Assembly (NCBI GenBank): GCA_964291415.2
Contig: OZ219917.1
Span: 96,001-160,000 of the forward strand
From: Alphaproteobacteria bacterium
GTDB lineage: Bacteria > Pseudomonadota > Alphaproteobacteria > SP197
Reading direction: 5' to 3'
DNA length: 64,000 bases
Position 1 is the stretch's first letter. The number at the start of each line of letters is the position of its first letter. The notes beneath the pieces are model-generated. The model was not told where the DNA came from, ran no database searches, and saw only the letters and a list, made by a program, of their open reading frames with translations. Below, piece by piece: positions 18,317 through 34,662 of this stretch. Made by a program: the position numbers and the translations under genes.

Positions 18317-18650
18317 GGTCTTGTCCTCCGGGATCATGGCCGACGGGCCGGGACTCTACCCGGCGGGCCGGCCGGGCGTCCAAGGCGACGACCTTTGCGA
18401 CGAGGAGGACGATCAGGGCCGGAACGCCTCGCAAGGTGACACTGGCGGCGTCGGTGCCTCGGCACGCAGGAAAGCGCCTTCACCACAGCACGCACCTTTG
18501 TTTCTAATCTACTGTAATACCTACCCGTTTTCTCTCGACCATTGTTGCGAACGAACGGAATGCGACACTCCCGATCGCGGTAGGGAACCGGGTTGCCCCG
18601 GTCCCCCCCGCGCAGATCCGGACGAGCGCTGTTCGCATCCGGCTCCTCCC

Positions 18651-19488
18651 TCAGGTCCTGACGACGAGCCGTTGGTTTGGCCACGGGTGGCGGATGCTGG
18701 CTTTGGGCCAGTGGGCGGCGGTGAGGAGGTCAATATCCGTCCATTCGGTGCGATCCTTCTGAGATCGTCGCCGAAGCGCACACCTGAACAGCCTGCGGCA
18801 TTGGCGTATGAACCTCTGCAAGTCATGGCCGCTCCCGGGGACGGCAAAGTAGTTGAGCCAGCCATTGATAACTCGCCCAAGCCACTTGGCCGTTTCGTGC
18901 CGGTTGTCGTGCCACCGCATGCTCAGTGCCTCCTTGATCCGCCGCAGAGTGCGGCGGACCCGTTTCCGGGACGGTTTGCGGCCAACCCTGAACCGGCCAT
19001 TCCTCGTCTGCTCGCAGAAGTGCGTCATGCCGAGAAAGTCAAACGTCTCCGGCTTGCCCTGCCCCCGCTTGCGGCGGTTCGCTCTCGCAAACCGACCGAA
19101 CTCGATGAGCCGGGTCTTGTCCGGATGCAGTTCCAGTCCATAGCGGGCCAGCCTCTCCCCGAGGTCCCGGAGGAAGCGCTTCGCATCGCCCAGATGCTGG
19201 AAGCCGCACACAAAATCATCGGCATAACGCACGATGATGGTGTCGCCTCCAGCCATCCGCTTGCGCCATGTGTTGTGGAACCAGTCGTCGAGCACGTAGT
19301 GCAGATAAACGTTCGCAAGGCAGGCCGATACAATCGCCCCCTGCGGCGTTCCCCTGCCGGTGTCCGACCAGTCGGCCCCCTCCATGACGCCGGCGTTGAG
19401 CCACTTGACGATCAGCCTGATGACCCGCTTGTCCCCGATACGTTTCTCGAGCATCCGAACCAGATGGTCCCGGCCGAGATTGTCGAAG
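18651..19488 (-). pseudogene. ltrA: Intron A RT/maturase, C-terminal half
   Basis: FDNLGRDHLVRMLEKRIGD..., GTPQG, RYADDF, FDFLG, GWLNYF, IRHPWP. Confidence 0.92.
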
Positions 19489-19813
19489 GACCACCCGACA
19501 CACTACCCACCTCCGTGAGCTTCCGGTCTCGGTCAGGATTACGCGCGAGGCGCATCCCTATCAGGGCCAGTCGCTTGAAGTCCTGAAGCAGATTCGCCGG
19601 CAGGACGGCGTCCTGCTTCTTCTCCTTCTTGGTCCTGACGGCAGCCGCCGTCTTGTTCCCGTCGAGTGGACGGATGCCGTGCCCGGCGATGCCACCGGAC
19701 AACCGGGGACCGGTCATCAACTCACAGCCGGACCGCACGATCTGTTGCACTTGCGATCTCTCGTCGATGCTCTGCTCGCTCGTTCTGAAGCGGAGCCCTG
19801 TCGATGCAACTGA
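19481..19813 (+). CDS. DUF5372/Y4bD-like accessory protein (no clear start codon within the element)
   Basis: Manual translation ...HTTHLRELPVSVRITREAHPYQGQSLEVL...GPDGSRRLVPVEWTD...DLLHLRSLVDAL; not in the ORF track. Confidence 0.6.
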   Translation, partial: CRRTTRHTTHLRELPVSVRITREAHPYQGQSLEVLKQIRRQDGVLLLLLLGPDGSRRLVPVEWTDAVPGDATGQPGTGHQLTAGPHDLLHLRSLVDALLARSEAEPCRCN

Positions 19814-19963
19814 ACCTGATCTTTCCGGGAACCCGGGAACCGCACGAGGAGCTGTGGACAGCCCTCGACGAGGAGACACGCCGCGTCGTGCTCGGAACGG
19901 CTGGCCGAGGTCATCGCCAAGGCGGCACCGGAGAAGCCCCAGGCGGAGAGCATCGGACCATGA
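19804..19963 (+). CDS. Small accessory ORF of the recombinase element (one extra base near 19895)
   Basis: MQLNLIFP...LWTALDEETRRVVL[ER]LAEVIAKAA...; stop overlaps the recombinase ATG (ATGA). Confidence 0.55.
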
Positions 19964-22172
19964 CTGATGGCAAGATCTGTGCTGCACATCGGCAACGCCG
20001 TGCCCTCGTGTACGTCCGCCACGTCCTCGCCGTCCCAGGTCGAGAACAACCGCGAGTCGACCCGGCGCCAGTACGCCCTGGCCGATCGCGCCCGTGATCT
20101 GGGGTGGCACTCCGACCGGATCACGATCGTCGACGAGGACCTCGGCCTCTCGGGCGCCACTGCCGAAGGACGCAGCGGCTTCGCGCGCATGACCGCCGAA
20201 GTGGCCCTCGGCCAGGTCGGGCTCCTGCTCGGGCTCGAGGTGTCGAGACTCGCCCGCAACAACGCCGACTGGTACAGACTGCTTGACCTGTGCGGATTGA
20301 CCGACACCCTGATCGGCGACGCCGACGGCATCTATCATCCCGGCCTGTTCAACGACAGACTCGTCCTGGGACTGAAGGGCACCATGAGCGAGGCGGAGCT
20401 TCATATCCTGCGAGCACGGCTCGATGGCGGAATCCGCAACAAGGCGGCGCGCGGTGAGCTCTACCGAGGACAGCCCATCGGATACATCCGGGGCGAGGCC
20501 GGCGCCGAGATCCTTCTCGACCCCAATGAGGAGGTTCAGGCCGCGATCCGCGCCGTGTTCGAACGATTCGCCGAGTTCGGATCGGCACGCCGGGTGTGGC
20601 GCTGGTTCGTGATGGAGAAGCTGCACTTTCCCCACCGCTTCCACCGCCATGCCGAGCTTCGCTGGGAACCGCCCGCCTATCACACCATCCATGAAGTGCT
20701 GACCAATCCGGTCTATGCCGGCGCCTACGCTTACGGCAAGTCGCGGCGTGAGCGCCATGTCGACGAGAACGGCATCGTGCGCACGCGCATCCGCAGGCTG
20801 CCCCGCTCCGAATGGCAGGTACTGATCCACGACCATCATCCCGCCTATATCGACTGGTCCACCCACGAAGCCATTCTCGAGCGCCTGTCGCGCAACACCC
20901 GGCCGCTGTCGCATGGCGCGGGCAAGGGAGCGGTGCGTGAGGGAACGGCCTTGCTGCAGGGTCTCGGCATCTGTGGCGAGTGCGGGCGCCGCCTGGCGAC
21001 CCACTACACCGGCCGGACCTCCTCGCCCGGATATCATTGCAGGGGCAAGGAGCTGGTCGAGGCGCGGCGCTCCCTGTGCTTGCATGTGGGGGCCGTGCAG
21101 ATCGACCAGGCGGTCGCCAAGGCCGTCCTGGAGGCGATCCGACCGGCCGGCATCAAGGCCGCCTTGCAGGCGGTCGAGCGCATCGAGGCGGACTACGATC
21201 AGGCGCTCAAGCAATGGGGGCTCACCGTCGAGCGAGCACGTTACGAGGCCGAGAAGGCCGAGCGCCGGTATCGCGCTGTCGAGCCCGAACATCGTCTCGT
21301 CGCCCGCGGGCTGGAACGGGAATGGGAGCAGTGTCTGAACGCACTCGAAGAAGCGCAGAATGAGATGGAGCGGCGTCATCGCGACCGGCCGCGCCAACTC
21401 GATGCCGCCGAGCGCGATTCGCTCCTGGCCCTCGGCGAGGATCTCCAGCGCGCCTGGGATGCGCCCACGACGACGGCTCGCGACAGGAAGGAGCTGCTGC
21501 GCACGGTGCTCGATGAGGTCATCGTTCTTGCCCCGCGCGGCGAGTATCATATCCACCTGACACTGCGCTGGCGGACCGGGTTGTTGACCGAGATCGAACT
21601 CGAGCGCCCGCGCAAACGACGGGCGGCGGTCCGCACCGACGACGACATCATCGATCTGGTCCGCCGCCTCGCTCAGTTCCATTCCGATGCGGTGATCGCC
21701 GCCATACTCAATCGCCAGGGCAAGACAACCGCCTACGGGCATCCCTTCAATGTCCATCGCGTCGGCAATCTCCGCCGGCACTGGAGCATTCCGTGCTTCG
21801 ATCCAGCGACCGCGGCCACCGATGGCGAGCTGGTCAACATCGCCCAGGCGGCGAAGATACGTCGGCATCGCAACCTCGACGGTGCATCGATGGCTCAATG
21901 ACGGCTTCATCGACGGTGAGCAAGTCACGCCGGGAGCCCCGTGGCGCATCCGCATCACGGACGCGTTCCGTCCCAGGCTCATGGAAGAGGCGCCGCCCGG
22001 CTACGTCCCGATGATCGAGGCCATGCAGCGTCTCGGTGTGACCCGTCAGACCGTGTTGCAACGTGTAAAGCGTGGCGAACTCGACGCCATCCATGTCCGC
22101 GCCGGAAGAAAAAAGGCTCTACGTATCAGGGTTGTAGACGATAAGCCGGACCTCTTCGGTCACTCCGCATAA
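19960..22172 (+). CDS. Large serine recombinase (resolvase, recombinase, Zn ribbon, C-terminal HTHs); +1 frameshifts near 20021 and 21861
   Basis: After removing one base each: ALVYVRQSSPSQV, DEDLGLSG, EVSRLARN, LTNPVYAG, CGECG, AAKILGIATSTVHRW, LGVTRQTVLQRVKRG. Confidence 0.9.
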
Positions 22173-22193
22173 GCTGGGGGACACGTATGACAA

Positions 22194-22842
22194 TGTCGAA
22201 GAATCCGCTGATATCCGCGTCCAGCACCCAGTTGACCTTGCGCCGCTCAATCCCGACCGTGACCGCGTCGAGCGCATCGTGCGCCCCGCGCCCCGGGCGG
22301 AACCCATAGCTGAAGCCGAGGAACTCCGTCTCGAAGATCGGCACCAGGATCGTGTCTGTCACCGCGCGCTGGACGATCTTGTCCTCCAGCGCGGCGATGC
22401 CGAGCGGTCGTTGCCCACCGTCCTCTTTGGGAATGTAGACCCGCCGTGACGGCAGCGCCCGGTACGCTCCCCTATGCAGGCGGCCCTGCAGGTCGCTCAG
22501 GCGACCGTCCAGACCGTCCGCGTAGTGGGCCCACGTCACGCCGTCGACCCCGGCCGCCGCGTCCTTCCTCAACGAGTGGAACGCGTCGCTCAGGGCCTCT
22601 GTCGTGATGTGGTGGAGGAGCGCAACAAGACGCTCTCCCGGGTTCCTCTTGGCTGCTGCCCGTATCCGGTCCGCCGCCTGTGGCACGCTTTCCCGCTTCT
22701 GGGCACGGCGCGTGGCGCGACTTTCCGGCTTCCCCTCAGGTCCGGCCCTTCGCTCCACGAGCTCCGCCGGCGCCAAGGCGCCTTTGTTCGCTCGCTTCAT
22801 CGCTACTATGGCCGAATCCGACTTCTCCAAATCGTTCGTCAT
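22194..22842 (-). pseudogene. ltrA: Intron A RT/maturase, N-terminal half
   Basis: AAGVDG, RRVYIPK.DG..RPLGI, EDKIVQ, SYGFRPGRGAHDAL, WVLDADISGFFD. Confidence 0.92.
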
Positions 22843-23193
22843 CAGTTACGGACTTCTCCTTTCATCAGCGGCCCCGTACGACACGGGGCGACTTGGAGAC
22901 CTCCCGGGTCCCGGCAGAAGGCGTGCATACGTGCCTGGGTTCTCAGACGCCGCGGAGCCGGCTCGACCCTCGTCCTGTCGGTCCGAGCCGTGTTGCCTTC
23001 GACCCCTAGGACGGTCTCGGCACTCCGAACTTGGGATTTCGGCGCTCAATAGCCCCGCCCGCATACCCCGCTACCGACGCTTCACCGACAGCCTCACGAC
23101 TGCCCGCGCACGGCTCGCGGAGAAGGTTGGCTGACTAGGCCTTACCTCCAGCGGACTTTCACCGCCTCCCTTCTGCCAGTTGGCCCGGCACTC

Positions 23194-23493
23194 CCCAGGT
23201 CCCGGTGGACTGCTTCGGCGCGTGCCATGGTTCTTTGACCCCGCGGAGCCCCTCGTCACCTCACCAAAACGACTCAACGGGTGTTGCCTTCGGCTCACGG
23301 GACGGCCTCGGCACTCCAGATCACTAGCTTTTCGGGTCTCGATAGCCCGGCCCACGCTTGCCCCCCCAACGCTTCGCCTGCCGCCTCGCGACGACCGACG
23401 CATGGTTTGCGGGGAAAGTGGTTGGTTGAGCTCTGTTTCTGCTTCTGCCAGGACATTCACCCGGCAACATTCCCACCAGTTTGCCTGGCGCAC
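23194..23493 (-). mobile_element. 5' (domain I) fragment of an outer group II intron hosting intron A
   Basis: Starts GTGCGCCAGGCAAACTGG; carries the same DI motifs as introns A and B (GAAGCGT, GAGTGCCGAG...GAAGGCAACAC, CTCCGCGG, CCGGGACCTGGG); no matching 3' part found. Confidence 0.78.
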
Positions 23494-23571
23494 CCCCCTT
23501 GTGCGTCCCCTTGCAATGCAATGACGCGGTGGTCATACTTTCATTCATCACCGATCAACGGGAGGAATGAG

Positions 23572-23856
23572 ATGAAACATTGGCTTATCGCAATCTGTGC
23601 TGGGATGTTCACATTCGGAAGCGCTGCCATGGCGGATGACATGATGGACTGCGCATTGTCCTACGATGTCTATGAAATGAGTGTGCCCCATACCGATCTT
23701 GAGGCATGCCCTGATGCAGTGGCCGCCGAGGGCCTGTTCTGCCGCCTCTCGGTCGTCGCGGAGGTAGCGACCATCTTCGCGTTTGACGAGGAAAGTGGCT
23801 GTCTTGTCAGCGCCGCATCATTCGAAGAGGACGAGTTCACCATCACAATTCACTAG
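23572..23856 (+). CDS. Small acidic secreted protein with four Cys in the mature part
   Basis: GGAGG RBS, signal MKHWLIAICAGMFTFGSAAMA, 94 aa. Confidence 0.75.
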   Translation: MKHWLIAICAGMFTFGSAAMADDMMDCALSYDVYEMSVPHTDLEACPDAVAAEGLFCRLSVVAEVATIFAFDEESGCLVSAASFEEDEFTITIH

Positions 23857-23917
23857 GCTCTTACGAGGGGCGGGTGGCCGCCACGCGTGGCCCCCGCCTC
23901 AAAGCGGGGAAAGCGCC

Positions 23918-24331
23918 ATGCGAAATACTATCCTGCTGACCGGTGCTTTAGCACTGGTCATGGCTGCGTCGATGAGCGCGGCATTCACGCCGGGCGATCC
24001 TGTTCGGGGCCAGACTGTTTTCAAAAAGTGTAGTTCCTGCCACTCGGTTGAGGAAGGGAAGAACCGTCCCACAGGGCCGAATCTCTTGGGCGTTTTTGGC
24101 CGCCAGGCCGGCATCGTTGAGTTCCGCTTCAGCGAGAGCCTCGTGGAGGCTGGAGCGGCAGGCCTTGTCTGGACACCGGAACTAATGAACGCCTACATCA
24201 CCGATCCGAAACAATTCCTGAAGGACACGCTTGGCGTATCCAAGGTACGCAACAAGATGAAGTACAAGATGCGGAAAGAAGAGGACCGCGCTGACGTGAT
24301 CGCCTTCCTGATGTCCCTTCAGGAAGAGTAA
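23918..24331 (+). CDS. Second cytochrome c2-like protein
   Basis: CSSCH; closely similar to 1593-2012 (AFTPGD.VRG, GPNLLG.FGRQAG, AGLVWTPEL, VRNKM, DRADVIA). Confidence 0.92.
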   Translation: MRNTILLTGALALVMAASMSAAFTPGDPVRGQTVFKKCSSCHSVEEGKNRPTGPNLLGVFGRQAGIVEFRFSESLVEAGAAGLVWTPELMNAYITDPKQFLKDTLGVSKVRNKMKYKMRKEEDRADVIAFLMSLQEE

Positions 24332-25186
24332 AAAGGGGCGTTGCAGAATGCTGATGGTGCTCGGACAACGACCGACAACCTATGCAAGCGTGAGTATCTC
24401 CAGATCTTTCCTACCGGCATGTTGTCCAGAGACAGAAGGGACAAAAATGTGATTCGGGCCATGAGTTGCGCACTGATAACATGTCGCACCATCAGGAAGA
24501 TTGCTGCGACGACACTGCGGGAACAAACCGAGATGCGTGCTGAGACTGAATCACAGGCGAGTTTCCCAGTTGTGCGACGAGAATGCTCCAAGTCCAACGT
24601 CTAGCCCGCTTTGGGGTGACCTCCGTTGGTTGCCACGGTCACCCGTCTTCCGTAATGGGGCGTTCGCCGTCAAACGCGATTTGTCGCATGGTTGTCTCCT
24701 AGACACCAAATTGCGCGGGAGGTTGGCCCCGACCGGCGCCGGGGTCAATAGGGCCGAACGAAGGGCTGAAACGGTTGCCTCCCATATGCTCCGCTCAACG
24801 GTAACGGTGATTGTGCTGTCGCCGCAGAGGTTCTGCGCATTCGCCTCGATTGCCACCGGGAACGTGCTCCCCGACCACGCGGGGATGAACCAACGTCCGT
24901 GATGCGGGCCCGGACTGCCGCAGCGAGCGACCCACGGCGGACCGGTGGAACCCCATGGCTGCCATGCGCCTCTGCCCGTCTATCCAGGGGTGCCTTTCGC
25001 TGCCGGTATCGGGTACAGTTGCTCTCGAACGAAAGTGCCGATGAGGGAGACTCCACGGCGGGGAGGCGGCACGCTCCTGTCGCACGAGAGGAAACATCCC
25101 CATGGCGCCGAGCCGCCCCCCGGTCGCTCTGTCGCAACCGCTTCCCACCAACACCGCACCTGCGGTCACTTAGTCGCGGTAGGGAT

Positions 25187-25530
25187 CCAGCCAGCCAGAT
25201 GCTGTCGGCCACATCCGTTTTGCGTCCCTTGATCTGCTTGACGTGCTGGGCATGGACCAGCACAGGCTTGATGCCGGCGTCCTCGAGAGCCTGGAAGGGC
25301 GCCTCCCAGTAGATGCCGGTGCCCTCCATCACGGCGGCGCTCACCCGATGCTCCTGGAGCCAGCGCACCATCCCGGCAAGGCCCTTGGGGAAGGCGCTGA
25401 ACTGCCGGGTCTCGACAACCGCCTCCTTGCCGGGCTGTGCGATCCTCACGCTCGCCGTGATCTCGACCTTGTGGATGTCAAGACCGGCCGCACGCTCATG
25501 GATGACATTGAGATGATCGTTTTCTACCAT
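25187..25530 (-). pseudogene. IS110-family recombinase N-terminal RuvC/DEDD domain (frame stays open into unrelated sequence to 24745)
   Basis: AGLDIHK, VMEGTGIYW, HVKQIKGRKTDVADSIWLA; GGAGG RBS. Confidence 0.88.
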
Positions 25531-26001
25531 GACGCTTCCTCCGTCTGTTGGGGGTGGCGGAAGCGGGAGACCTCCGGACAGCTGACAGATATCGATGGCG
25601 ACATCGTGCGTTTTGCTGTTCGTCCACGGATTGAACCGGGTACTTCGCGGGGTGCGAACCGTCAGTCTGGGACAGTTTGTTAACGGGCATGAAGCCTCGA
25701 AATTAAAGCGTCCACGAGCCCGCTTCCGCCGTGAGTGTGTTGCACTCAAGGCAGGCGGACAATACGCGCCCGACTCCGAGCAGGCCTGTTACATCAACAC
25801 GCCGGGTGTGCCTGAAACGACAGGATCATGGCAGTTTGTTTGTCCACATGCGGTCCGGTGTTCCGACATTCCGGTTTCTGCGCCCTGTGGCCAGGGGGAC
25901 GTGCAGCTCGTGATCCAGGAAGCATGAGTGGGCTGCCTTCCCTTGATCACGGTAACGTGACCTGACGTGAGGGCGCCGGGCGGTGCTGTGACCACGTTCA
26001 T

Positions 26002-26015
26002 CGGTAACGTTACCG
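26002..26015. repeat. 14-bp perfect palindrome CGGTAACGTTACCG, with a variant CGGTAACGTGACC at 25950-25962
   Basis: Read directly from the sequence. Confidence 0.8.
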
Positions 26016-26036
26016 CGTACAATGGGATCCCAGGTC

Positions 26037-26327
26037 TCATGTGTCCCGTCCGTAGCCGCGCGGTGGCTCGATCTCCTCGAGGGCCTCGATGTCGGCCTCG
26101 ACGATGATTTGCAGGCGCTCTCCATAGGCCGTGTCATGCAGGGGGTCCGGGAGCCTGTCGAGACAGTCCCGATAGTGCTCCTGCAGTGCGCCGAGTTCGG
26201 CCACCGCATCGCGCCAGCGTTGGGCACGGGAGCGCCGGTCGCGGGGCTTGCGGGTGCGCACGGGAGGGTTGCCGGCCTTGAGCCGTTCCCGATAACGTCG
26301 CTGTTTCTCTGCAGGCGTGAGGGCCAT
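26037..26327 (-). CDS. 96-aa hypothetical protein, basic N-terminus and acidic helical C-terminus
   Basis: AAGGAG RBS overlapping the upstream stop; MALTPAEKQRRYRER...RSRAQRWRDAVAEL...IEPPRGYGRD. Confidence 0.8.
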   Translation of the reverse strand: MALTPAEKQRRYRERLKAGNPPVRTRKPRDRRSRAQRWRDAVAELGALQEHYRDCLDRLPDPLHDTAYGERLQIIVEADIEALEEIEPPRGYGRDT

Positions 26328-26340
26328 GAGGGAGTCTCCT

Positions 26341-28509
26341 TCACGCCGGCAACCGTGCCGGTGCTTCGGGCGACCAGCAGCGCTGTTCCCGCAGCAGGGC
26401 GTTCGCCAGCACGATGAGTTTGCGCATGAGGGCGACGATCGCCACCTTGTGGGCCTTGCCGGCGGCCTTGAGGCGTTCGAACACGCTTGCGAGATCCTGG
26501 TTGCAGCGTGATGCCGTGGTGGCGGCCATGAACAGGAGATCGCGTGGCCTGCGGCGCCCGCCGCGAATGTGCCGGGTGCCGTGGTGCTGGCCGCTGTCGT
26601 CGGCAACCGGCGCCACTCCGATCAACGCCGCCGCCTGGCGACCCTCGAGACTGCCGAGTTCGGGCATCCAGCAAAGAAGGGCGGCGGCGGTCACCGGACC
26701 GACGCCGGGGATCGAGATCAGGATGCCGTACTTCTCGGCCTGCTCGGGATCACCGGCGATCACCGCTTCGATCGCCGCATCCAGTGCGGCAATCCTCTCG
26801 TCGAGATCGGCGACCGTGGCCCGTGTGAGGGTCTCGCCCTCGCCGTCCACCTCACCCGCCACCTGCCTCAGCATCTTGCGTGCATCGACATGCCTGGCGC
26901 GCACCACCAGGAGGTCCTCCAGGCGGTTGAGGAACGCCTCCTGGGGAGCCACGGGCTCAAGGTCGTCGAGCACCGTCCCGAGCCTGGCCAGCATCAACGC
27001 GTCGACGCGGTCGGTTTTGGCCAGATGGCCCAGCGCCTCGGCGAAGCGCCGGGTCGGCCATGGATGGCGGATACGCAGCTGCGGCCAGAACGCACGCGCC
27101 AGAGAACCAACGGTGGCCAAAGTGGCACGATCCATTTGGGACCGACGCCGCAGCACACGGCACCAGATCTTTAGAAGTCGCCGCACGAACCGCTTGAGGG
27201 ACAGGAAGCTGGTGGAGACGGCATAGTAGCCGAGCCAACCATCAACGACCCTTCCGAGCCATTTGGCCACTTCATACCGGTTGTGGTGCATGCGGTGGCG
27301 CAGAACCGTCCGGAGACGAGCCAGGGTTCGGGTGACCCGTTGCCTGGCCGGCTTGCGCCCCAACCCGAAGCCTCCGCTCCGCGTGGTTCGGCAGCAATGC
27401 GTGAACCCGAGGAAGTCGAAGGTTTCGGGACGCCGTTCCCCTCGTGCCCGACGGTTCGCCATGGCGAACTTTCCGAACTCGAGGAGACGGGTCTTGGCAG
27501 GGTGAAGTTCCAGCGAGAACCGAGCCAGTCGTTCCTTCAGATCGTCGAGGAACCGTTCCGCGTCCTGCCGATGCTGGAATCCGACCACGAAGTCATCGCC
27601 GTATCGCACGATGAACGTGACACCACGGGCTGTCTGGGTGCGCCACTTCTTCTGGAACCAGAGGTCGAGGGCGTAGTGGAGGTAGATGTTCGCCAGAATC
27701 GGCGAGACGACCGAACCCTGCGGAGTGCCCCGCAGGTTGTCCCTCCATTCACCCTCGTCCATGGCACCGGCATGGAGCCACTTGGCGATCAGCCGGATGA
27801 CCCGTCTGTCACCAATGCGGTGTTCCAGGAACCGGAGAAGACATCGTCGGTCAATTCGGTCAAAGTAGGACCGAATGTCCGCGTCAAGGATCCAGTTGAT
27901 GGAGCACCGTTCTATCCCGTAGGCCAGAGCATCGAGCGCGTCATGCGCCCCGCGCCCCGGTCGGAACCCATAGCTGAACCCGAGGAACTCCGGCTCCCAG
28001 ATTGGCTCAAGGATGGTCTCGACCACCGCCTTCTGGACGATCTTGTCCTCCAGCGCAGCGATGCCAAGCGGTCGTGTCCCCCCGTCCGGCTTCGGGATGT
28101 TCACCCGTCGGGACGGGAGCGCTCGGTACGCGCCGCTGTGAACACGGTCATGCAGGGCGAGCAGACGCTCGTTCAGTCCATGTCCGTATTCGTGCCACGT
28201 CACCCCGTCCACCCCTGCCGCCGCGTCCTTCTTCAACGAGAAGTAGGCAGCGCCGAGAGCGTCCGTCGTGATGTGGTGCAACAGCGCAGTGAGCCTCTCC
28301 TTCGGAGTCCTCGTGGCCCTTTGCCGTATCCGCTCCGCCGCCTGTGACATGCGAGCCCGGCCCTGTGTCCGGTGCATGCTTTGGTGTCGCGGATTCCTCT
28401 TGGTTTCGGCCCTTCGCTCCATCGCCTCCGCCAGAGCCTCGGTTCCCTTGTTCGGCGACTTCACAGCTACTATGCCCGAATCCGATTGCTTCAACTCGTC
28501 CATCTTCAT
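26341..28509 (-). CDS. In-frame fusion of group II intron RT/maturase and the C-terminal half of an IS110 recombinase (722 aa)
   Basis: RT motifs through GTPQG, RYGDDF, IRHPWP, then RRFAEALGHLAKTDRVDA, SIPGVGPVTAA, GVAPVADDSG, RHIRGGR, KAHKVAIVALMRKL. Confidence 0.9.
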   Translation of the reverse strand: MKMDELKQSDSGIVAVKSPNKGTEALAEAMERRAETKRNPRHQSMHRTQGRARMSQAAERIRQRATRTPKERLTALLHHITTDALGAAYFSLKKDAAAGVDGVTWHEYGHGLNERLLALHDRVHSGAYRALPSRRVNIPKPDGGTRPLGIAALEDKIVQKAVVETILEPIWEPEFLGFSYGFRPGRGAHDALDALAYGIERCSINWILDADIRSYFDRIDRRCLLRFLEHRIGDRRVIRLIAKWLHAGAMDEGEWRDNLRGTPQGSVVSPILANIYLHYALDLWFQKKWRTQTARGVTFIVRYGDDFVVGFQHRQDAERFLDDLKERLARFSLELHPAKTRLLEFGKFAMANRRARGERRPETFDFLGFTHCCRTTRSGGFGLGRKPARQRVTRTLARLRTVLRHRMHHNRYEVAKWLGRVVDGWLGYYAVSTSFLSLKRFVRRLLKIWCRVLRRRSQMDRATLATVGSLARAFWPQLRIRHPWPTRRFAEALGHLAKTDRVDALMLARLGTVLDDLEPVAPQEAFLNRLEDLLVVRARHVDARKMLRQVAGEVDGEGETLTRATVADLDERIAALDAAIEAVIAGDPEQAEKYGILISIPGVGPVTAAALLCWMPELGSLEGRQAAALIGVAPVADDSGQHHGTRHIRGGRRRPRDLLFMAATTASRCNQDLASVFERLKAAGKAHKVAIVALMRKLIVLANALLREQRCWSPEAPARLPA

Positions 28510-28862
28510 TTCGGATCGTTTCCTTCCTTCCGCGGCCCCGGTACGACAACCGGGGCAAGTTGAAGCCCTCCCGAGTCCCGGTGCAGGGGTGTACGTGCGT
28601 CCCTGGATTCCTCTGACACCGCAGAGCCCGGTCTGTCCTCACCAAAGCGGACATGCCGGTGTGGCCTTCGGCAGATATCAGTGCCTCGGCACTCTGGAAC
28701 TTAACCTTTACGGTGCTCAATCATCCCGGCCACACGCACCGCTACCGACGCTTCGGCCGTGCCCTCACAGGCGCGTCCGCACGGCTCGCGGTGGAAGTGG
28801 AGGTTACCCTTTCTTCCCGTCGGACTTTCACCGACTCCCCTGCGCCAGTTAGCTCGGCGCAC

Positions 28863-28977
28863 GACATCATGGATTGACCATGACCTGCCCTCCTCGATGT
28901 GGCTCTGTACTCACGGGTTCCTGACCTCGAGCATAACCCACGATCCTCGAGGCCAGGGCAGGTCAATCCATGATGTC
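28863..28977. repeat. 115-bp palindromic MITE/REP-like element; target of intron B
   Basis: 17-bp perfect terminal IR GACATCATGGATTGACC / GGTCAATCCATGATGTC, plus inner IRs TGCCCT/AGGGCA and CCTCGA/TCGAGG. Confidence 0.85.
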
Positions 28978-29275
28978 TGACCGGAATGTTCTGTCGGGTC
29001 CGAAAGAGCCTACGGATGTCGTCCGCGATGACGGCGGGCATTATCGATGCCCTGGGGAACATGCGGCGGATCGCCGGCTGATCTGATCGACGGGAGGGTC
29101 CGAAGCTCAACCGGTCCGTGACCTGTCGCGTGCGCCACAATTCAAATTGAGCACCACCCGACCGCCTTGCGGTTTGACAAACAGGTCCGGGCCCCGAAGG
29201 GTTCGCCCGATCATGCGCGGGCCGGAATGCCGGTCCGGCGTACCAGGAAACATGCCCACGAGCCGGGGAATCGGG

Positions 29276-31327
29276 ATGTCCTATCGCGTCGGAGTCGATA
29301 TCGGTGGCACGTTCACCGATTTCTTCGTGTTCGACGAGACCACCCTGGAGACACAGGCCCTGAAGGTGCCGTCGCGCCCCGACAGGCCGGGCGCCGAGGT
29401 GCTCGAGGGTCTGCGTCAGCTTGAAGCCCGCTTCGGCATCGCCCCCGGCGAGATCATCCATTTCAGCCATGGCACCACCGTGGGCGTGAACACCGTAATT
29501 CAGCGCAAGGGCATCAGGCTCTGCCATTTCACGACCGAAGGGTTCACCGACGTGCTCGAGGTGGCCCGGCTGAGAACGCCGGACGTCTACAACCTGCTCT
29601 CGAAACGTCCTGCTCCTCTCATCCCGAGGGAGCGCGTCTTCCCGGTCGCGGGGCGCCTGGCGAGCGACGGCAGCGAACTCCAGCCGGTCGACAGGACCAG
29701 CGTCGAGGCCGCCGTCGCAAAGGCGCGCGAGGCGCGCGCCGAAGGCATCGTCGTGGCGCTCCTGAATGCCTACCGCAATCCGGCCCACGAGCATGAGGTG
29801 GCTGCCCTGGTGCGCGTGATGGCGCCGGAACTTCCCGTGTTCTGCTCTGCCGACGTCTGGTCGATCATCCGCGAGTACGAGCGCACGATCACCGCCGTCA
29901 TCCACGCCTACGTGCAACCGCGCGTCAGCCGCTACCTGGGCTCGCTGCAGGATGCGCTGCGCGAGGCGGGCGTCCCGGCCGAGCCGCTTGTCACGAAGTC
30001 CAACGGCGGGGTGATGAGCGCCGAGATGGGCAAGACCGCCTGCGCCCAGATGATCATGTCGGGCACCGCCTCGGGCGTGATCGGCGCGAGCCATGTCGCC
30101 GTGCTCTCCGGGTGCCGCAATGCCATCAGCTTCGATGTCGGCGGCACCAGCGCCGATGTCGCATTCATCGCCGACGGCCACCCGCAGTACGGTATCGGAG
30201 AGATGATCGGCGAGTTCCCGATCTACATCCCGACGGTGTCGGTCACCTCGATCGGCGCTGGTGGTGGATCGATCGCCCGCATCGACGATGCCGGTGTGCT
30301 CAACGTGGGACCCGAAAGCGCCGGCGCGGTGCCGGGCCCGGCCTGCTACGGCACGGGCGGCGACGAGCCGACGCTGACCGACGCCTTCGCCGTTCTGGGT
30401 TACATTGGCCGGACCGGCCTCGGCTACGACACGGTCCCGGTGAAGACCCGCGCCGCCCGCCGCGCCATGGGCGCGCTCGCCGGGCGCATGGAGCGCAGCG
30501 TCGAGGAGACGGCGGAGGCCATCGTCCAGGTGGCGGTGTCCGGCATGTACCTGGAGGTCTCGAAGCTCGTGTCGTCCCGGGGCATCGATCCGCGCGACAA
30601 CGCCCTCGTCGCCTTTGGCGGCGCGGGCCCCATGATCGCCTGCTTCCTGGCTCGCGAGCTGAACATGTCGACCGTCGTGATTCCGACGGCACCCGGTGTC
30701 CTGAGCGCCATGGGCGGCCTGATCGCCGATCTCAAGAACGACTTCGTCCGGACGATCTACGCCGATCTCGACGCCGGGACGGCGCCCGCGATCCGGGATG
30801 GCTTCGAATCCCTGCGGAACCTGGGCGAGCGATGGCTGCGCCAGGAGCAGCGCTACGACGGACCCGCCGCCTACATCCACTCGGCGGACATGCGCTACAA
30901 GGGACAGTCCTTCGAGATCGAGGCGGTCCTCGACCCGGACGCCATCGAAAAGGGCGATGTCGCGGCACTCGGGGAGGCATTCCACGCCGCCCACGAGCAG
31001 CTCTACGCCCATGCGGACAGGGCGGCGCCGGTCCAGATCGTCAACCTGCGTCTGGTCGCGCTGGGCCAGACCCCGAAGCCTCGCTTCGAGTCCGCCGACG
31101 GGATGCCGGCCGCCGCGCAGCCGGAGGACAGCATCCCGATCCACGCGCAAGGCCGGACCGTCCGGGCCGCGCTGTTCCGGCGCGAAGCCTTGCAGCCCGG
31201 TCACACGTTCAGCGGCCCGGCCGTCGTCCTGCAGAACGACACCACCGTCTGCGTGACGGAGGACTTTCAGGCCCGTGTCGACGGCTACGGCCAGCTGATC
31301 CTGACCCGGGGAGAGGGAACCCGATGA
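29276..31327 (+). CDS. Hydantoinase A/oxoprolinase-family subunit
   Basis: GVDIGGTFTD, HGTTVGVN, REYERT, FDVGGTSAD, IGAGGGSIA, GPESAGAVPGPACYG, DMRYKGQSFE. Confidence 0.93.
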   Translation: MSYRVGVDIGGTFTDFFVFDETTLETQALKVPSRPDRPGAEVLEGLRQLEARFGIAPGEIIHFSHGTTVGVNTVIQRKGIRLCHFTTEGFTDVLEVARLRTPDVYNLLSKRPAPLIPRERVFPVAGRLASDGSELQPVDRTSVEAAVAKAREARAEGIVVALLNAYRNPAHEHEVAALVRVMAPELPVFCSADVWSIIREYERTITAVIHAYVQPRVSRYLGSLQDALREAGVPAEPLVTKSNGGVMSAEMGKTACAQMIMSGTASGVIGASHVAVLSGCRNAISFDVGGTSADVAFIADGHPQYGIGEMIGEFPIYIPTVSVTSIGAGGGSIARIDDAGVLNVGPESAGAVPGPACYGTGGDEPTLTDAFAVLGYIGRTGLGYDTVPVKTRAARRAMGALAGRMERSVEETAEAIVQVAVSGMYLEVSKLVSSRGIDPRDNALVAFGGAGPMIACFLARELNMSTVVIPTAPGVLSAMGGLIADLKNDFVRTIYADLDAGTAPAIRDGFESLRNLGERWLRQEQRYDGPAAYIHSADMRYKGQSFEIEAVLDPDAIEKGDVAALGEAFHAAHEQLYAHADRAAPVQIVNLRLVALGQTPKPRFESADGMPAAAQPEDSIPIHAQGRTVRAALFRREALQPGHTFSGPAVVLQNDTTVCVTEDFQARVDGYGQLILTRGEGTR

Positions 31328-33342
31328 CGATCGACAAGGTGACCCTGCAGATCCTCTCCAATCACTGCCAGGCGGCGGCCGAGGCCATGGCGCGCACGCT
31401 GATGCGCACGGCCCATTCGACCTTCGTGAAGGAAAGCGAGGACTTCACCTGCGGCCTCGTGACGCCTGGAGGCAAGACCTTCGCCTCGCCCTTCGACTTC
31501 GGGGCCACATGGTTCGTCGGTCTCGACTACGCGCGCGGCCTCGGCCTCATCGATGCTTATGACGAGGGCGATGTCGTCATCTGCAACGACCCCTACAGCG
31601 GGTTCGTCTGCACCCACACGCCCGACATGCATATCTGGAAACCCATCTTTCACGACGGCGAGGTGGTCTGTTTCGCCGTCGGCCACGTGCACAACACCGA
31701 CATCGGCGGCGCCGTGCCGGCGAGCCTGTCGCGCCAGCTCACGGAGGTGCACCAGGAGGGCCTGCGGCTGCCGCCGACCAGGCTCTGCCGCAAGGGCGAG
31801 CTGAACCGGGAACTGGTCGACATCATCATGGCGAACGTGCGCATGCCCGAGCAGAACTGGGGCGACATGAAGGCGCAGCTGGCATCGGTCAACATCGCGG
31901 AAGCGAGAGTGAGGGAGATCATCGCCCGCTTCGGCGCCGACACCTTCAGGGAAGGCGTCGAGGATCTGCTCAATCTCGCCGAGACCCAGGCGCGGCGGGT
32001 CATCGGCTCGATTCCGGACGGGGAGTACTTCTTCGCCGACTTCATGGACGAGGATTCGCCGGATGGCTATCCGGCCCGCGTCGCCCTCAATCTGATCGTG
32101 AAGGGCGACGAGATCGTCTTCGACTACACCGGCTCCGACCCCCAGCTGGCCTCCTCGATCAACGTTCCCACCGGTGGCGACGAACGCCACGTGCTGCTGA
32201 TGGTCGGAGCGGTCTACGTGCTCTACACGCTCGACCCATCCATCCTCCGAAACCACGGTTTGCTCCGGCCGCTGCGCTGCATCCTGCCGGAAGGCTCCTT
32301 CGTGAACCCCCGGTTCCCGGCCGCCGTCGGCATGAGAAGCCTCGGCGTGGGGCGCCTCATGTCGACCATCTTCGGCGCCTTCGCCCAGGCCCTGCCCGAC
32401 CTGCTCCAGGGCGGTCCGGGAAGCGGCGGGCCCTTGCTCAACGTGCGCACCACCGACAACCGTTCAGGTAGAAGCGTGATGGCGAACATCAGCCCGATCA
32501 CCGCCGGCGCCGGTGCGAGCGCGGCCGGCGACGGGTCGGAAGGCTGCGGCGCCAATCAGGCGTTCTTCAAGAACACGCCCGCCGAGATCAACGAGGCCGA
32601 CGTGCCGATCCGCATCCTGGAATACGGCCTCGCTCCCGACTCGGCGGGCGCTGGACGGCATCGCGGCGGGCTTTCGACCACCATGCTGTTCCAGGTGTTC
32701 GCGCCCAACACCGTGCTCACGGCGCGCAACCGCGACCGCATGGTCTTCACGCCGTGGGGAATTGCGGGCGGCGCGGCAGGCAAGTCGTCCCGGTTCACCC
32801 GCAACCCCGGCACGACCGGAGAGGTCGACCTCGGCAATACTGATGTCGTGACGGTCGAACCCGGCGACATCATCCGCATCACGGCCGCCGGAGGCGGCGG
32901 ATGGGGTCCGCCCCGCGAACGCGATCCCCGGGCCGTCATGGCCGATGTCAGGGGTGGTTTCGTGACCGTCGAGGGCGCCGCGCGCGACTACGGCGTGGTG
33001 ATTCGCGACGGCATGATCGATGAGGACGCCACCGCCGAGCGCCGCCGTGCCATGGCGGCGGCCGCCGGCAACGAGTTCTTCGGCCACAGTCCGGGCCGCG
33101 TCACCTTCGAGAAGGTCTGGACCCGCCAGCTCTACGACCGCCTCACGGATCTCCTGTGGAGCGTCCCGGTCAACTGGCGTTTCTTCGTCAAGCATCGCCT
33201 GTTCGCCGCTGTCGAGGCGCTCGACACCGACGACGTCGATCCCGCTACGCTCGACGACGCGCTGGCCGCCCTCATCGAAGAGCATCCGCAACTGCGCGAA
33301 TGGGGGGGCTGCCCGGACGTAAGCGGCGCCGTCGAGGTCTGA
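31324..33342 (+). CDS. Hydantoinase B/oxoprolinase-family subunit
   Basis: RTAHSTFVKESEDF, NDPYSG..HTPD, HNTDIGG, DSAGAGRHRGG, GGGGWGPP. Confidence 0.93.
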   Translation: MTIDKVTLQILSNHCQAAAEAMARTLMRTAHSTFVKESEDFTCGLVTPGGKTFASPFDFGATWFVGLDYARGLGLIDAYDEGDVVICNDPYSGFVCTHTPDMHIWKPIFHDGEVVCFAVGHVHNTDIGGAVPASLSRQLTEVHQEGLRLPPTRLCRKGELNRELVDIIMANVRMPEQNWGDMKAQLASVNIAEARVREIIARFGADTFREGVEDLLNLAETQARRVIGSIPDGEYFFADFMDEDSPDGYPARVALNLIVKGDEIVFDYTGSDPQLASSINVPTGGDERHVLLMVGAVYVLYTLDPSILRNHGLLRPLRCILPEGSFVNPRFPAAVGMRSLGVGRLMSTIFGAFAQALPDLLQGGPGSGGPLLNVRTTDNRSGRSVMANISPITAGAGASAAGDGSEGCGANQAFFKNTPAEINEADVPIRILEYGLAPDSAGAGRHRGGLSTTMLFQVFAPNTVLTARNRDRMVFTPWGIAGGAAGKSSRFTRNPGTTGEVDLGNTDVVTVEPGDIIRITAAGGGGWGPPRERDPRAVMADVRGGFVTVEGAARDYGVVIRDGMIDEDATAERRRAMAAAAGNEFFGHSPGRVTFEKVWTRQLYDRLTDLLWSVPVNWRFFVKHRLFAAVEALDTDDVDPATLDDALAALIEEHPQLREWGGCPDVSGAVEV

Positions 33343-33477
33343 ATCCCTCGCAGTTCCGTCCCGGACCCTTCCGGTTCACCACCTGAATCGTCATGCGGCC
33401 GGTCGGTTGACCGTCCAAAGTGCCTTGCCTACCTTCCCATCGGAAGGCATGCCAATGCCGAGGGGGGTGGCAGACCG

Positions 33478-34662
33478 GTGCGGTTCGACGGCAACGTCTA
33501 CTATCACGAACTCGAGGTGTACCCCGAGGACAAGCTGTTCGACGAGTGGCGTGAAACCGCCATGATGCTCGACCAGGGCGGATTCACGACCTGCTGGCTG
33601 GGCGAGCACCACTTCTGGCACCGGGGCTATCCGGTCGCCTGCCCCAATCCCGTCCTCGTGGGCCTTCATCTGGCAAGCGTGACCAAGAACCTGCGCATGG
33701 GCCAGAGCGCGTGCATCCTGCCCGATCATCATCCCCTGCGCCTGGCCGAGGACATCGCAACCGCCGATCATCTCGTGAAGGGACGACTGGACATCGGCAT
33801 CGCCCGCGGAACCAACAGTTCGGCGGGGATCCAGTTCAAGCGCGAGGCCGACCGGCGCGACCCCAAGACGAACTACCGCCTGTTCGCCGAGGTCCTCGAC
33901 ATCATGATCAAGTGCTGGACCGAGGACGCCATGAGGCACGAAGGCGAGTTCTACACCTTCCCCGTGCCCGGCTGGTCCGAGCAGGACGAACGCTTCTACA
34001 AGGACGATCCCGACCACTACCACCCGGACGGCAGCCTGAGGGCGCTGGGCGTGACGCCCAAGCCCTACCAGAAGCCCTACCCGCCGATCTGGCAGTCAGC
34101 GGACAACACCATGTCCTACGCCTTTGCGGCGGAACGCGGCCATTCGGTGATCGGCATCAACCGGTCGTTCGAGGGCACGCGCGAGGCGTGGGCGAAGTAC
34201 CGGGAGGTGGCGTCGGAGCAGTGCGGCCGCCGGCTCGAGATGGGCGTGTGCGCCAACGGCCAGACCCTGAACCTCATGCGCACCTTCCATATCGCCGAGA
34301 CCCAGGAAGAGGCCGAGCGGGAGGCGCGCGCCGGCATCAACGCCTTCTACGACGCCGCGACCGGCCTCAACCCCAACTGGGCGCGCAAGGGTCTCCTGGC
34401 GAAGCACGAATCGCTCTCAGACGAGGACGAGAACCTCGACTGGTTCGACTTCCTGCAGAAGTACGAAGTGCTGGCGGTGGGCTCGCCTGATTTCGTCGCC
34501 GAGCGCATCCACAAGTTCCGCGAGGAACTCAACTGCCGGCACTTCACCCTGTGGCCGAATCCCGGCTTCGTGCCCTTCCACAAGGTGCTGCGCGGCATCG
34601 AGCTCTTCGCCGAACGGGTCATTCCGCAGTTCGAGCGGACCGAGGCCGAGGCCGCCGAGTAG
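33478..34662 (+). CDS. Luciferase-like (LLM) flavin-dependent monooxygenase
   Basis: WLGEHHF, HPLRLAEDIATADHL.KGRLDIGIARG, PKPYQKPYPP, LFAERVIP. Confidence 0.9.
   Translation: MRFDGNVYYHELEVYPEDKLFDEWRETAMMLDQGGFTTCWLGEHHFWHRGYPVACPNPVLVGLHLASVTKNLRMGQSACILPDHHPLRLAEDIATADHLVKGRLDIGIARGTNSSAGIQFKREADRRDPKTNYRLFAEVLDIMIKCWTEDAMRHEGEFYTFPVPGWSEQDERFYKDDPDHYHPDGSLRALGVTPKPYQKPYPPIWQSADNTMSYAFAAERGHSVIGINRSFEGTREAWAKYREVASEQCGRRLEMGVCANGQTLNLMRTFHIAETQEEAEREARAGINAFYDAATGLNPNWARKGLLAKHESLSDEDENLDWFDFLQKYEVLAVGSPDFVAERIHKFREELNCRHFTLWPNPGFVPFHKVLRGIELFAERVIPQFERTEAEAAE

What the first reader, a model, noticed from the sequence alone, without database searches (positions are those of the whole stretch)
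26341..28509. Uninterrupted RT-IS110 fusion next to the complementary IS110 RuvC half
Seen: a 722-aa ORF with a complete RT/maturase (YGDD) joined at HPWPT-RRFA (about 27040-27052) to an IS110 C-terminal half that keeps KTDxxD and the SG serine loop. About 800 bp downstream, a different IS110 supplies only the N-terminal DEDD domain with its own RBS, preceded by about 500 bp of non-coding DNA. Known: IS110 bridge recombinases use a non-coding bridge RNA and a composite RuvC + Ser active site. Speculation: a split, RT-linked RNA-guided recombinase. The simpler explanation is a one-off microhomology rearrangement, since the halves come from different IS110 subgroups.
Basis: partly seen in the sequence, partly recalled or inferred. 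Interest (0 to 1): 0.72.

Follow-up and report, generated by a model that had tools for sequence, protein, structure and literature searches.

The report
Accidental intron–transposase chimera in mobile-element scrap
The long gene that joins a reverse transcriptase to half of an IS110 recombinase is real DNA, but it looks like a one-off accident inside a dead group II intron that was overwritten by pieces of two insertion sequences, not a new RNA-guided enzyme.

Summary
The 722-aa ORF (26341-28509, minus) is there exactly as described. Residues 1-490 are 98% identical to a free-standing 495-aa group II intron reverse transcriptase. Residues 487-722 are the C-terminal part of an IS110-family transposase ("IS-A"). 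The joint is a 15-nt stretch (27039-27053, RRFA) shared by both parents.

The ORF lies inside a group II intron that keeps its 5' end (28862) and its last 17 nt (25189-25173). About 110 nt of that intron (last five codons, domain V, most of domain VI) are replaced by 1.2 kb of IS-A plus the first 0.65 kb of a second element, IS-B. IS-B supplies the "complementary" RuvC half. It had inserted into IS-A 52 bp before IS-A's end. The intron therefore has no catalytic core, and both IS copies are truncated.

No fused relative with this joint turned up in two protein-library searches, 155 related intron loci or 40 related genomes. One other RT+Tnp protein exists, a singleton with a different joint. 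The RT half carries substitutions at conserved positions. A one-off, non-functional rearrangement is supported. A split RT-linked recombinase is not. Read support for the joint stayed inconclusive.

The parts
28863..28985 (-). 5' flank of the intron. A 123-bp miniature element derived from the left end of a third IS110-type element (IS-C, three full copies elsewhere in the genome), with 17-bp perfect terminal inverted repeats.
   Evidence: 93-97% identity to the DNA just upstream of three 407-aa IS110 ORFs. locate those ORFs. Searches give the alignment and the inverted ends as read from the sequence.
25173..28862 (-). Rearranged group II intron ('intron 1'). It has an intact 5' end (GTGCG at 28862-28858) and an intact 3' terminus, but its interior is replaced downstream of RT codon 490.
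   Evidence: 5' end; D1-D4 hit, no domain V; 3' terminus matches the clade consensus ending CCTACCGCGAC.
28607..28828 (-). Ribozyme domains I-IV segment of intron 1.
   Evidence: Rfam RF02005 group-II-D1D4-6, 156.2 bits (gathering score 49), model positions 1-225 of 225.
26341..28509 (-). Chimeric 722-aa ORF. Residues 1-490 are the intron-encoded RT/maturase; residues 487-722 are the IS-A transposase from the middle of its RuvC-like domain to its native stop.
27039..27053 (-). Left joint. A 15-nt stretch identical in both parents, encoding (T/A)RRFA in the same frame.
   Evidence: IS-A homology starts at 27053; a contig of run X2 follows the intact intron to 27039 and then reads the native last codons, the stop and the start of domain V. 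P0009 ends RRFAVTHSR.
25842..27053 (-). 3' 1.2 kb of IS-A (full element about 1843 bp in a congener). It lacks its left end, about 81 N-terminal codons and the last 52 bp of its right end.
26037..26327 (-). Conserved 96-aa second ORF of IS-A with its own AGGAGA ribosome-binding site. No family match.
   Evidence: sequence; open at 84-95% amino-acid identity in all 11 matches, which lie in 10 loci; no NCBIfam hit.
25190..25841 (-). 5' 0.65 kb of IS-B (full element 1722 bp, 7 copies in congener G006). It comprises a structured non-coding left end (25532-25841) and transposase codons 1-114 (25190-25531). It is inserted into IS-A.
   Evidence: left-end fold z = -3.45.
25173..25189 (-). Surviving last 17 nt of intron 1 (3' strand of domain VI with the branch-point region and the 3' splice site), joined directly to the IS-B break.
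   Evidence: the last 11 nt equal the consensus 3' end of 15 related introns, and intron 2 of this window ends almost the same way.
24745..25531 (-). Read-through ORF of the IS-B fragment: 114 IS-B codons followed by about 147 codons of intron tail and unrelated flank.

Best explanation
The ORF is an accidental, one-off chimera inside a dead mobile element.

A group II intron sits on the minus strand from 28862 to 25173. It inserted next to an IS110-derived miniature element, upstream of a hydantoinase gene. Later, about 110 nt near its 3' end were lost: the last five codons of the reverse transcriptase, the catalytic domain V and most of domain VI. In their place lie 1.2 kb of one IS110-family element (IS-A, starting in mid-gene) and the first 0.65 kb of another (IS-B). 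IS-B had transposed into IS-A 52 bp before IS-A's right end.

Most likely path (inferred, not shown): IS-A inserted into the intron's 3' region, IS-B inserted into IS-A, and two short-homology deletions trimmed the nest. The left deletion used a 15-nt identity that encodes RRFA in the same frame in both genes, so the reverse transcriptase frame runs straight on into the IS-A transposase frame.

Consequences:
- The intron cannot splice or move.
- IS-A and IS-B each lack an end and part of their recombinase.
- The 722-aa product, if made, would be a nearly whole reverse transcriptase/maturase carrying an inert coiled-coil plus Tnp tail.
- The neighbouring RuvC fragment is the left-over of the second element, not a partner.
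For: Shown:
1. Parentage. Residues 1-490 match the stand-alone 495-aa protein P0009 at 479 of 490 positions, and P0009 ends RRFAVTHSR. Residues 482-711 match IS-A at 209 of 231, and the native IS-A C-terminus is kept.
2. The joint is a 15-nt shared stretch.
3. Rfam finds D1-D4 at 156 bits but no domain V anywhere between 25000 and 28600. The sister intron in the window has its domain V match right after its RT stop.
4. The 17 nt after the IS-B break end in the clade's 3' terminus CCTACCGCGAC (15 relatives plus intron 2).
5. The IS-B boundary matches 7 copies in G006 and 1 in G014. In the 14 other copies examined (13 from five congeners, plus the second copy in this genome), IS-A runs on 52-54 bp past the point where IS-B begins.
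6. Uniqueness.
- 0 of 9 hits in the 5.8-billion-protein library have RVT_1 plus Transposase_20.
- Among the top 150 of 1.84 billion representatives, none spans this joint. Only 2 have any IS110 similarity: one lone fragment and one singleton with a different joint.
- 0 of 155 related intron loci whose RT match reaches the C-terminus extend more than 20 aa past the normal stop.
- 0 of 40 related genomes have a match crossing the joint.
- 0 of 60 have a match crossing the IS-A/IS-B abutment.
7. Decay. Of the 11 differences from P0009, 5 put in a residue seen in 0 of 105 distinct relatives, including W223C and the invariant P432S.
8. Precedent. In congener G004, IS-A copies sit inside introns of this clade at two different sites.
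9. Base rate. 10 of the 120 listed hits of another IS110 lineage are Tnp-domain chimeras with foreign N-termini, and a hydantoinase-IS110 chimera also exists.
Against: The ORF is fully open over 722 codons, and the IS-A half shows no obvious damage: it is 93% identical to a congener's copy, with DSG and GGRRRPRD kept. The event is therefore recent, or some constraint cannot be excluded.

The order of events is inferred. No intermediate was found, whether an intron carrying whole IS-A or a whole IS-A::IS-B nest.

The exact right-hand breakpoint and any microhomology there cannot be fixed, because the DNA of the true parental intron was not available.

The IS621 active site is built in trans from a RuvC domain and a Tnp domain of different protomers (PMC11208158, passages read). 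Complementation by fragments is therefore not absurd in principle.

Read support for the joint was not shown.
Confidence: 0.88

Rival explanations
1. The structure is the same, but it arose in one step at the RNA level. During retrohoming the intron's reverse transcriptase copied the last 17 nt of the intron RNA. It then switched to a read-through transcript of an IS-A::IS-B nest elsewhere in the genome, and returned to the intron RNA at the 15-nt identity (copy-choice recombination). The result would be a patched cDNA copy of the intron.
For: Both intron termini are kept and only an internal piece is replaced. All three pieces have the same orientation, as expected for sense RNAs. The left joint is a 15-nt identity of the kind that guides copy-choice. 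Template switching by group II intron reverse transcriptases during retrohoming is in the literature (PMC3280974, seen only as title and abstract start in the listing).
Against: No donor IS-A::IS-B nest exists in this genome. IS-B has no other copy here, and the only other IS-A copy has an uninterrupted right end and is about 10% diverged. None of 60 relatives has the abutment. Both switches would be internal to their templates, whereas, as I recall, these enzymes prefer end-to-end switching. In-situ nesting has direct precedent in G004. DNA-level replication template switching would give the same product.
Confidence: 0.1
2. One reading: the fusion protein (RT plus coiled coil plus Tnp serine domain) and the neighbouring RuvC fragment together form a split, RT-linked, bridge-RNA-guided recombinase.
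For: The ORF is open. The Tnp serine loop and KTDxxD are kept. The IS-B fragment keeps all four DEDD positions and has a ribosome-binding site and a structured left end with z = -3.45. RuvC and Tnp act in trans in IS621 (PMC11208158).
Against: The architecture does not recur with this joint in any of the four searches. The two halves are 24% identical relatives from lineages with opposite end architecture. The IS-B RuvC fragment is cut about 9 residues after the last D and reads on into roughly 147 junk codons. IS-A has lost its left end and the last 52 bp of its long right end; in IS1111-type elements the right end is where the bridge RNA lies (PMC11208160). The intron has no domain V. The RT carries substitutions at conserved or invariant positions.
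Confidence: 0.02
3. The joint is an assembly artefact that wrongly links an intron copy to an IS110 copy.
For: One search showed no contig that bridges 27053 in its truncated table. Two contigs of run X1 diverge at 27053. Depth is zero or near zero at 27459-27780. The genome shows 9% contamination.
Against: The genome is in 5 contigs, and the window lies in a 1.24-Mb one. I infer from this, but cannot show, that long reads were used. A 15-nt identity is too short to mislead such an assembly. The diverging contigs are what other IS-A copies would produce. The coherent structure, with intron 5' end and the matching intron 3' terminus flanking the IS pieces, is not what a mis-join would produce.
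Confidence: 0.03

Closest known systems
Bacterial mobile group II intron with an intron-encoded RT/maturase (Rfam group-II-D1D4-6 type; NCBIfam TIGR04416)
   Same: It has a 5' GTGCG, a full-length D1-D4 match, an RT with finger/palm motifs and YGDD plus the maturase X domain, and the clade's 3' terminus. A 98% identical free-standing RT exists.
   Different: Domain V and most of domain VI are gone, and the ORF's last five codons are replaced. As it stands it is not a ribozyme and not mobile.
IS110-family bridge recombinases (IS621; Durrant et al. 2024, PMC11208160; Hiraizumi et al. 2024, PMC11208158)
   Same: The IS-A part keeps the second half of the RuvC-like domain (KTDRVD), the coiled-coil region and the Tnp domain with the serine loop. 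The IS-B part keeps D, E, D, D and a structured left end.
   Different: Neither polypeptide has a whole RuvC fold together with a Tnp domain. The IS-A part scores 122 bits against a cut-off of 140. Each element has lost one end. In IS621, D11, E60, D102, D105 and S241 are all required.
Nested and truncated mobile elements that give chimeric ORFs
   Same: In congener G004, IS-A copies interrupt introns of this clade at two sites. Intron 2 in this window is split by a serine-recombinase element and itself sits in an intron fragment. P0047, P0002 and 9 further listed proteins are Tnp-domain chimeras.
   Different: Here both intron termini are kept while an internal piece is replaced, and the frame stays open across a 15-nt identity. 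That gives an unusually long, tidy-looking ORF.

Membership tests
Mobile group II intron | 5' splice-site consensus and ribozyme domains I-IV | tested here: met
   GTGCG at 28862-28858. RF02005 scores 156.2 bits over model positions 1-225 of 225.
Mobile group II intron | Intron-encoded RT with maturase (X) domain | tested here: met
   RVT_1 at 117.7 bits; GIIM weak at 18.4 bits against a cut-off of 23. TIGR04416 scores 343 bits against a cut-off of 300. However, 5 substitutions put in residues seen in 0 of 105 relatives.
Mobile group II intron | Catalytic domain V | tested here: not met
   No RF00029 match at E <= 1 between 25000 and 28600. The sister intron has its match at 18574-18647. The sequence after codon 490 is IS-A.
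Mobile group II intron | Domain VI with branch point, and the 3' terminus | tested here: inconclusive
   Only the last 17 nt remain (25189-25173). They match the clade's 3' end, but the 5' strand of the helix is missing.
IS110-family bridge recombinase | Complete RuvC-like DEDD domain in the polypeptide | tested here: not met
   The fusion matches only profile positions 77-140 of 155, at 20.4 bits against a cut-off of 29. It starts about 81 residues into the IS-A transposase and so lacks the GIDVSK aspartate and the MEATG glutamate. The IS-B fragment covers profile positions 1-105 only.
IS110-family bridge recombinase | Tnp domain with the conserved serine | tested here: met
   Transposase_20 at 61.8 bits. 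DSG is conserved in the alignment. This holds for the fusion only; the IS-B fragment has no Tnp domain.
IS110-family bridge recombinase | Whole-protein family score | tested here: not met
   NF033542 scores 122 bits against a cut-off of 140.
IS110-family bridge recombinase | Both element ends and the bridge-RNA-bearing non-coding end intact | tested here: not met
   IS-A lacks its left end and the last 52 bp of its right end. IS-B lacks everything after codon 114. The bridge RNA itself was not modelled.
Conserved RT + IS110 domain fusion (hypothetical family) | The same architecture and joint recur in independent genomes | tested here: not met
   0 of 9 hits. 0 of 150 top representatives have this joint; 1 of 150 has both domains, at another joint, and is a singleton. 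0 of 155 intron loci. 0 of 40 relatives.

The most novel reading that the evidence does not exclude
The patched intron is a fossil of copy-choice by a bacterial group II intron reverse transcriptase in vivo. In this reading, cDNA synthesis began at the intron's 3' end, jumped to a cellular IS110 read-through transcript, and returned to the intron RNA at a 15-nt identity. That would make a chimeric retro-copy analogous to the chimeric retrogenes of eukaryotic LINEs.
Probability: 0.1. Interest if true: 0.45.

Novelty: new member of a known kind. Interest (0 to 1): 0.12.

Why it matters
It matters mainly as a caution. In GC-rich genomes a tidy, long, two-domain ORF can be a by-product of nested mobile elements. 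Whether the joint recurs in other genomes, and whether the host element is intact (here: no domain V, missing IS ends), settles the question quickly.

Three smaller points may interest mobile-element specialists:
- IS110-type elements repeatedly land inside introns of this clade.
- IS-A carries a conserved second ORF of unknown role.
- A replacement that keeps both intron termini is the pattern one would look for when searching for in-vivo template switching by intron reverse transcriptases.

Tried and rejected
Read support. One search for runs and one laying of contigs were made. No RNA holder was listed. Run X1 covers both sides of the joint, and two of its contigs diverge at 27053, but the table shown was cut (104 pieces not shown) and no bridging piece was listed. 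Read support is therefore undecided. Parts without cover (27459-27780) are not used as evidence.

Bridge RNA. Rfam at E <= 1 over 18000-34000 gave no bridge-RNA or other RNA-family match in 25000-26340. Folding the IS-B left end gave z = -3.45. No covariance model was built, because the IS-B copies are nearly identical to one another.

dN/dS. This was not computed. The parental intron is available only as protein (P0009), so I used the test of conserved positions instead.

The 3' flank. I considered that 24340-25172 might be another intron's 5' end, because GTGCG occurs 13 nt after the splice site. It has no Rfam match, no other copy in this genome and no real match in 60 relatives. It is left unexplained.

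Literature. A search for 'group II intron' + IS110 + 'reverse transcriptase' + fusion returned 5 papers, judged from the listing only. None is about such a fusion. Supplements were not consulted.

Not run. No structure or complex prediction was run, because the report does not claim that the two fragments bind.

Full report
THE OBSERVATION

The ORF 26341..28509 on the minus strand (722 aa, ATG start) is present.

Pfam finds four regions:
- RVT_1 at residues 138-370 (117.7 bits).
- A weak GIIM maturase match at 394-457.
- Transposase_20 at 596-674 (61.8 bits).
- A sub-threshold DEDD_Tnp_IS110 match at 482-545, covering only profile positions 77-140 of 155.

NCBIfam calls the N-terminal part a group II intron RT/maturase (343 bits, cut-off 300). 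The C-terminal part matches 'IS110 family RNA-guided transposase' over profile positions 82-342 of 343, at 122 bits, below the cut-off of 140.

About 810 bp further along the minus strand, an ATG at 25531 preceded by GGAGGAAG opens a fragment that matches DEDD_Tnp_IS110 positions 1-105 only.

THE TWO PARENTS AND THE JOINT

A stand-alone 495-aa protein in the public collection, P0009, is identical to residues 1-490 of the ORF at 479 of 490 positions. It ends RRFAVTHSR.

Residues 482-711 match the transposase of a second copy of the same IS110-type element in this genome (contig C2), which I call IS-A, at 209 of 231 positions. That transposase reads ...NPLRARRFAEVMGHLAKTD.

At the DNA level:
- IS-A homology begins at 27053.
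- A contig of run X2, laid on the window, follows the intact intron as far as 27039. Its loose end, read on the minus strand, then gives the native last codons, a stop and the start of domain V.

The joint is therefore a 15-nt stretch (27039-27053) identical in both parents. It encodes RRFA in the same frame in both, which is why the frame stays open.

THE ORF LIES INSIDE A GROUP II INTRON THAT KEEPS BOTH TERMINI

Rfam finds the D1-D4 ribozyme segment at 28607-28828 (156 bits), and the intron starts with GTGCG at 28862. No domain V match exists downstream of this RT at E <= 1. The sister intron in the window has its domain V match directly after its RT stop, at 18574-18647 (33.2 bits, below the gathering score of 40).

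I fetched 160 related intron loci and aligned the DNA after the RT stop for 15 of them plus the sister intron. The clade ends ...TTCCTACCGCGAC, followed by unrelated flanks.

The same terminus stands in the window at 25189-25173, immediately after the point where the second IS110 fragment breaks off. By my own rough estimate, not a tool result, an exact 11-12-nt match falling just at a breakpoint has a chance probability of the order of 1e-6.

Intron 1 therefore spans 28862 to 25173. About 110 nt of it, namely the last five codons, domain V and the 5' part of domain VI, have been replaced by 1864 nt of IS material.

THE IS MATERIAL

IS-A:
- It is about 1843 bp long in congener G004.
- It has a 315-332-aa transposase and a long 3' non-coding end.
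- The window holds IS-A only from mid-gene (27053) to about 25838.
- In the 14 other copies examined (13 from five congeners, plus the C2 copy in this genome), the element runs on for a further 52-54 bp before the flanks diverge.

IS-B:
- The second element is 1722 bp long, with 7 near-identical copies in congener G006 and one in G014.
- Its left end begins at 25838-25841.
- The window's copy stops matching at 25190, after codon 114.
- IS-B therefore transposed into IS-A, 52 bp before IS-A's right end, and was later truncated.

How the two elements compare:
- The two full-length transposases are 24% identical.
- IS-A has the longer right end and IS-B the longer left end. In the literature this asymmetry separates the IS1111 and IS110 groups and marks where the bridge RNA lies (PMC11208160, passages read).
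- The two fragments overlap rather than split cleanly: both carry KTDxxD. The IS-A part lacks the first D and the E of DEDD. The IS-B part has all four positions but stops about 9 residues after the last one, then reads through about 147 codons of intron tail and unrelated flank.
- In IS621 all of D11, E60, D102, D105 and S241 are required, and the RuvC domain spans residues 1-122 (PMC11208158, passages read).

IS THE FUSION CONSERVED?

It is not, in anything searched.
- Searching the 5.8-billion-protein library with residues 440-722, over candidate lengths of 397-1264 aa, gave 9 hits. None combines RVT_1 with Transposase_20. One is the 495-aa RT, and one is a hydantoinase-IS110 chimera.
- Scoring the whole ORF against 1.84 billion representatives gave 61,510 hits. 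All of the best 150 are 566 aa or shorter, and their best stretches lie either within residues 3-499 or, for one protein, within 506-719.
- A phmmer check of those 150 with nine IS110 queries found IS110 similarity in 2. One is a 216-aa lone IS-A fragment. The other is P0047.
- P0047 (392 aa) does carry RVT_1 plus Transposase_20. Its RT is cut at residue 234, before the catalytic YxDD. Its Tnp part belongs to another IS110 lineage, 26% identical to IS-A over 108 residues. It is a singleton: 1 member sequence on 1 contig.
- In that same search, 10 of the 120 listed proteins combine this Tnp domain with foreign N-terminal domains and lack the DEDD domain. Accidental Tnp-domain chimeras are therefore common.
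- Of the 160 related intron loci, 155 have an RT match reaching residue 470 or beyond. In none of those does the frame run more than 20 aa past the normal end.
- Of 40 related genomes searched with 601 nt across the joint, 12 matched one half or the other and none matched across it.
- Of 60 relatives, none has a match crossing the IS-A/IS-B abutment.

SIGNS OF DECAY

I aligned the RT half with P0009 and 105 distinct full-length relatives, taken from 150 loci with an uninterrupted full-length match.
- At 5 of the 11 differences from P0009, the window's residue occurs in 0 of 105 relatives.
- Two of these are W223C, where 89 of 105 relatives have W, and P432S, where all 105 have P.
- At 5 of the 11 positions (223, 280, 372, 405, 432) P0009 carries the family's majority residue.

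This is what relaxed constraint after immobilisation would give. Against this, the IS-A half shows no comparable damage.

HOW IT AROSE (INFERRED)

The simplest DNA-level path has four steps:
1. IS-A inserts into the intron's 3' region.
2. IS-B inserts into IS-A.
3. One deletion runs between the two RRFA stretches.
4. A second deletion runs from IS-B codon 114 to the last 17 nt of the intron.

Nesting of IS-A in introns of this clade is seen in congener G004. There one copy interrupts domain I and another interrupts the first codons of the RT, and the latter occurs in two intron copies.

A one-step alternative is copy-choice by the intron's own reverse transcriptase, or by a replication fork. 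It fits the retained termini and the common orientation. It needs a donor IS-A::IS-B nest, which is not in this genome and not in 60 relatives. I give the RNA-level version about 0.1.

VERDICT

As it stands:
- The intron is non-splicing.
- Both IS copies are truncated.
- The long ORF is a by-product of the left joint.

Read support for the joint could not be decided from the single laying of contigs. The coherence of the structure and the long contig argue against an artefact. Interest is low. The one mildly novel possibility is the template-switch origin.

Noticed in passing
window 18562-23190 (-): A second group II intron, about 72% identical in DNA to intron 1. It has a D1-D4 match at 172 bits and a domain V match at 18574-18647. 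Its RT is split into 238-aa and 267-aa pieces by a 2.7-kb insert (19482-22203) that encodes a 644-aa large serine recombinase on the opposite strand. A 99.6% identical copy of the insert lies at G000:C1:1158983-1161700.
   Followed up: partly
window 23191-23492 (-): A third intron 5' fragment (GTGCG, D1-D4 match at 107 bits) ends just where intron 2 begins. Intron 2 therefore appears to sit inside, or to have replaced the rest of, an older intron copy.
   Followed up: partly
window 26037-26327 (-); also L002 and L014-L020: IS-A carries a second ORF of 96 aa downstream of its transposase. It is open in every copy examined, with 11 matches in 10 loci at 84-95% amino-acid identity. It has no NCBIfam match and was not scanned against Pfam. 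An accessory gene in an IS110-type element is unusual and its role is unknown.
   Followed up: partly
window 28863-28985; G000:C1:229137, C2:682287, C2:1297247: A 123-bp miniature element with 17-bp perfect inverted ends. It is 93-97% identical to the left end of three full IS110-type copies (407-aa ORFs). More diverged copies (80-83%) lie at four further places. Intron 1 is inserted exactly at its right end.
   Followed up: partly
L209 (G004:C1:1143000-1152000), L210: In a congener, IS-A copies sit inside introns of this clade at two sites: in domain I, and in the first codons of the RT. The second insertion is present in two intron copies.
   Followed up: partly
L188 (G006:C1:1294600-1299000): Two IS-B copies lie head to tail, so that the right end of one abuts the left end of the next. 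Six of the seven left flanks in G006 end in AC before the element's CAAAC start.
   Followed up: no
P0002; P0160-P0262: A 637-aa hydantoinase A fused to an IS-A-like Tnp half (59% identical) exists on another contig. Ten of the 120 listed relatives of another IS110 lineage are Tnp-domain chimeras with foreign N-termini. A hydantoinase gene also flanks the window's element (29147-31327, +). I did not test whether that is more than coincidence.
   Followed up: no
L002 (G000:C2:84724-88933): The genome's other IS-A copy is full length in DNA, but its transposase frame is broken at the N-terminus and runs on into the small ORF at the C-terminus. A TnpB-like ORF lies just upstream.
   Followed up: no
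window 24340-25172: The 3' flank of intron 1 is 0.8 kb of GC-rich DNA. It has no convincing ORF, no Rfam match, no other copy in the genome and no real match in 60 relatives. Its origin is unknown.
   Followed up: partly
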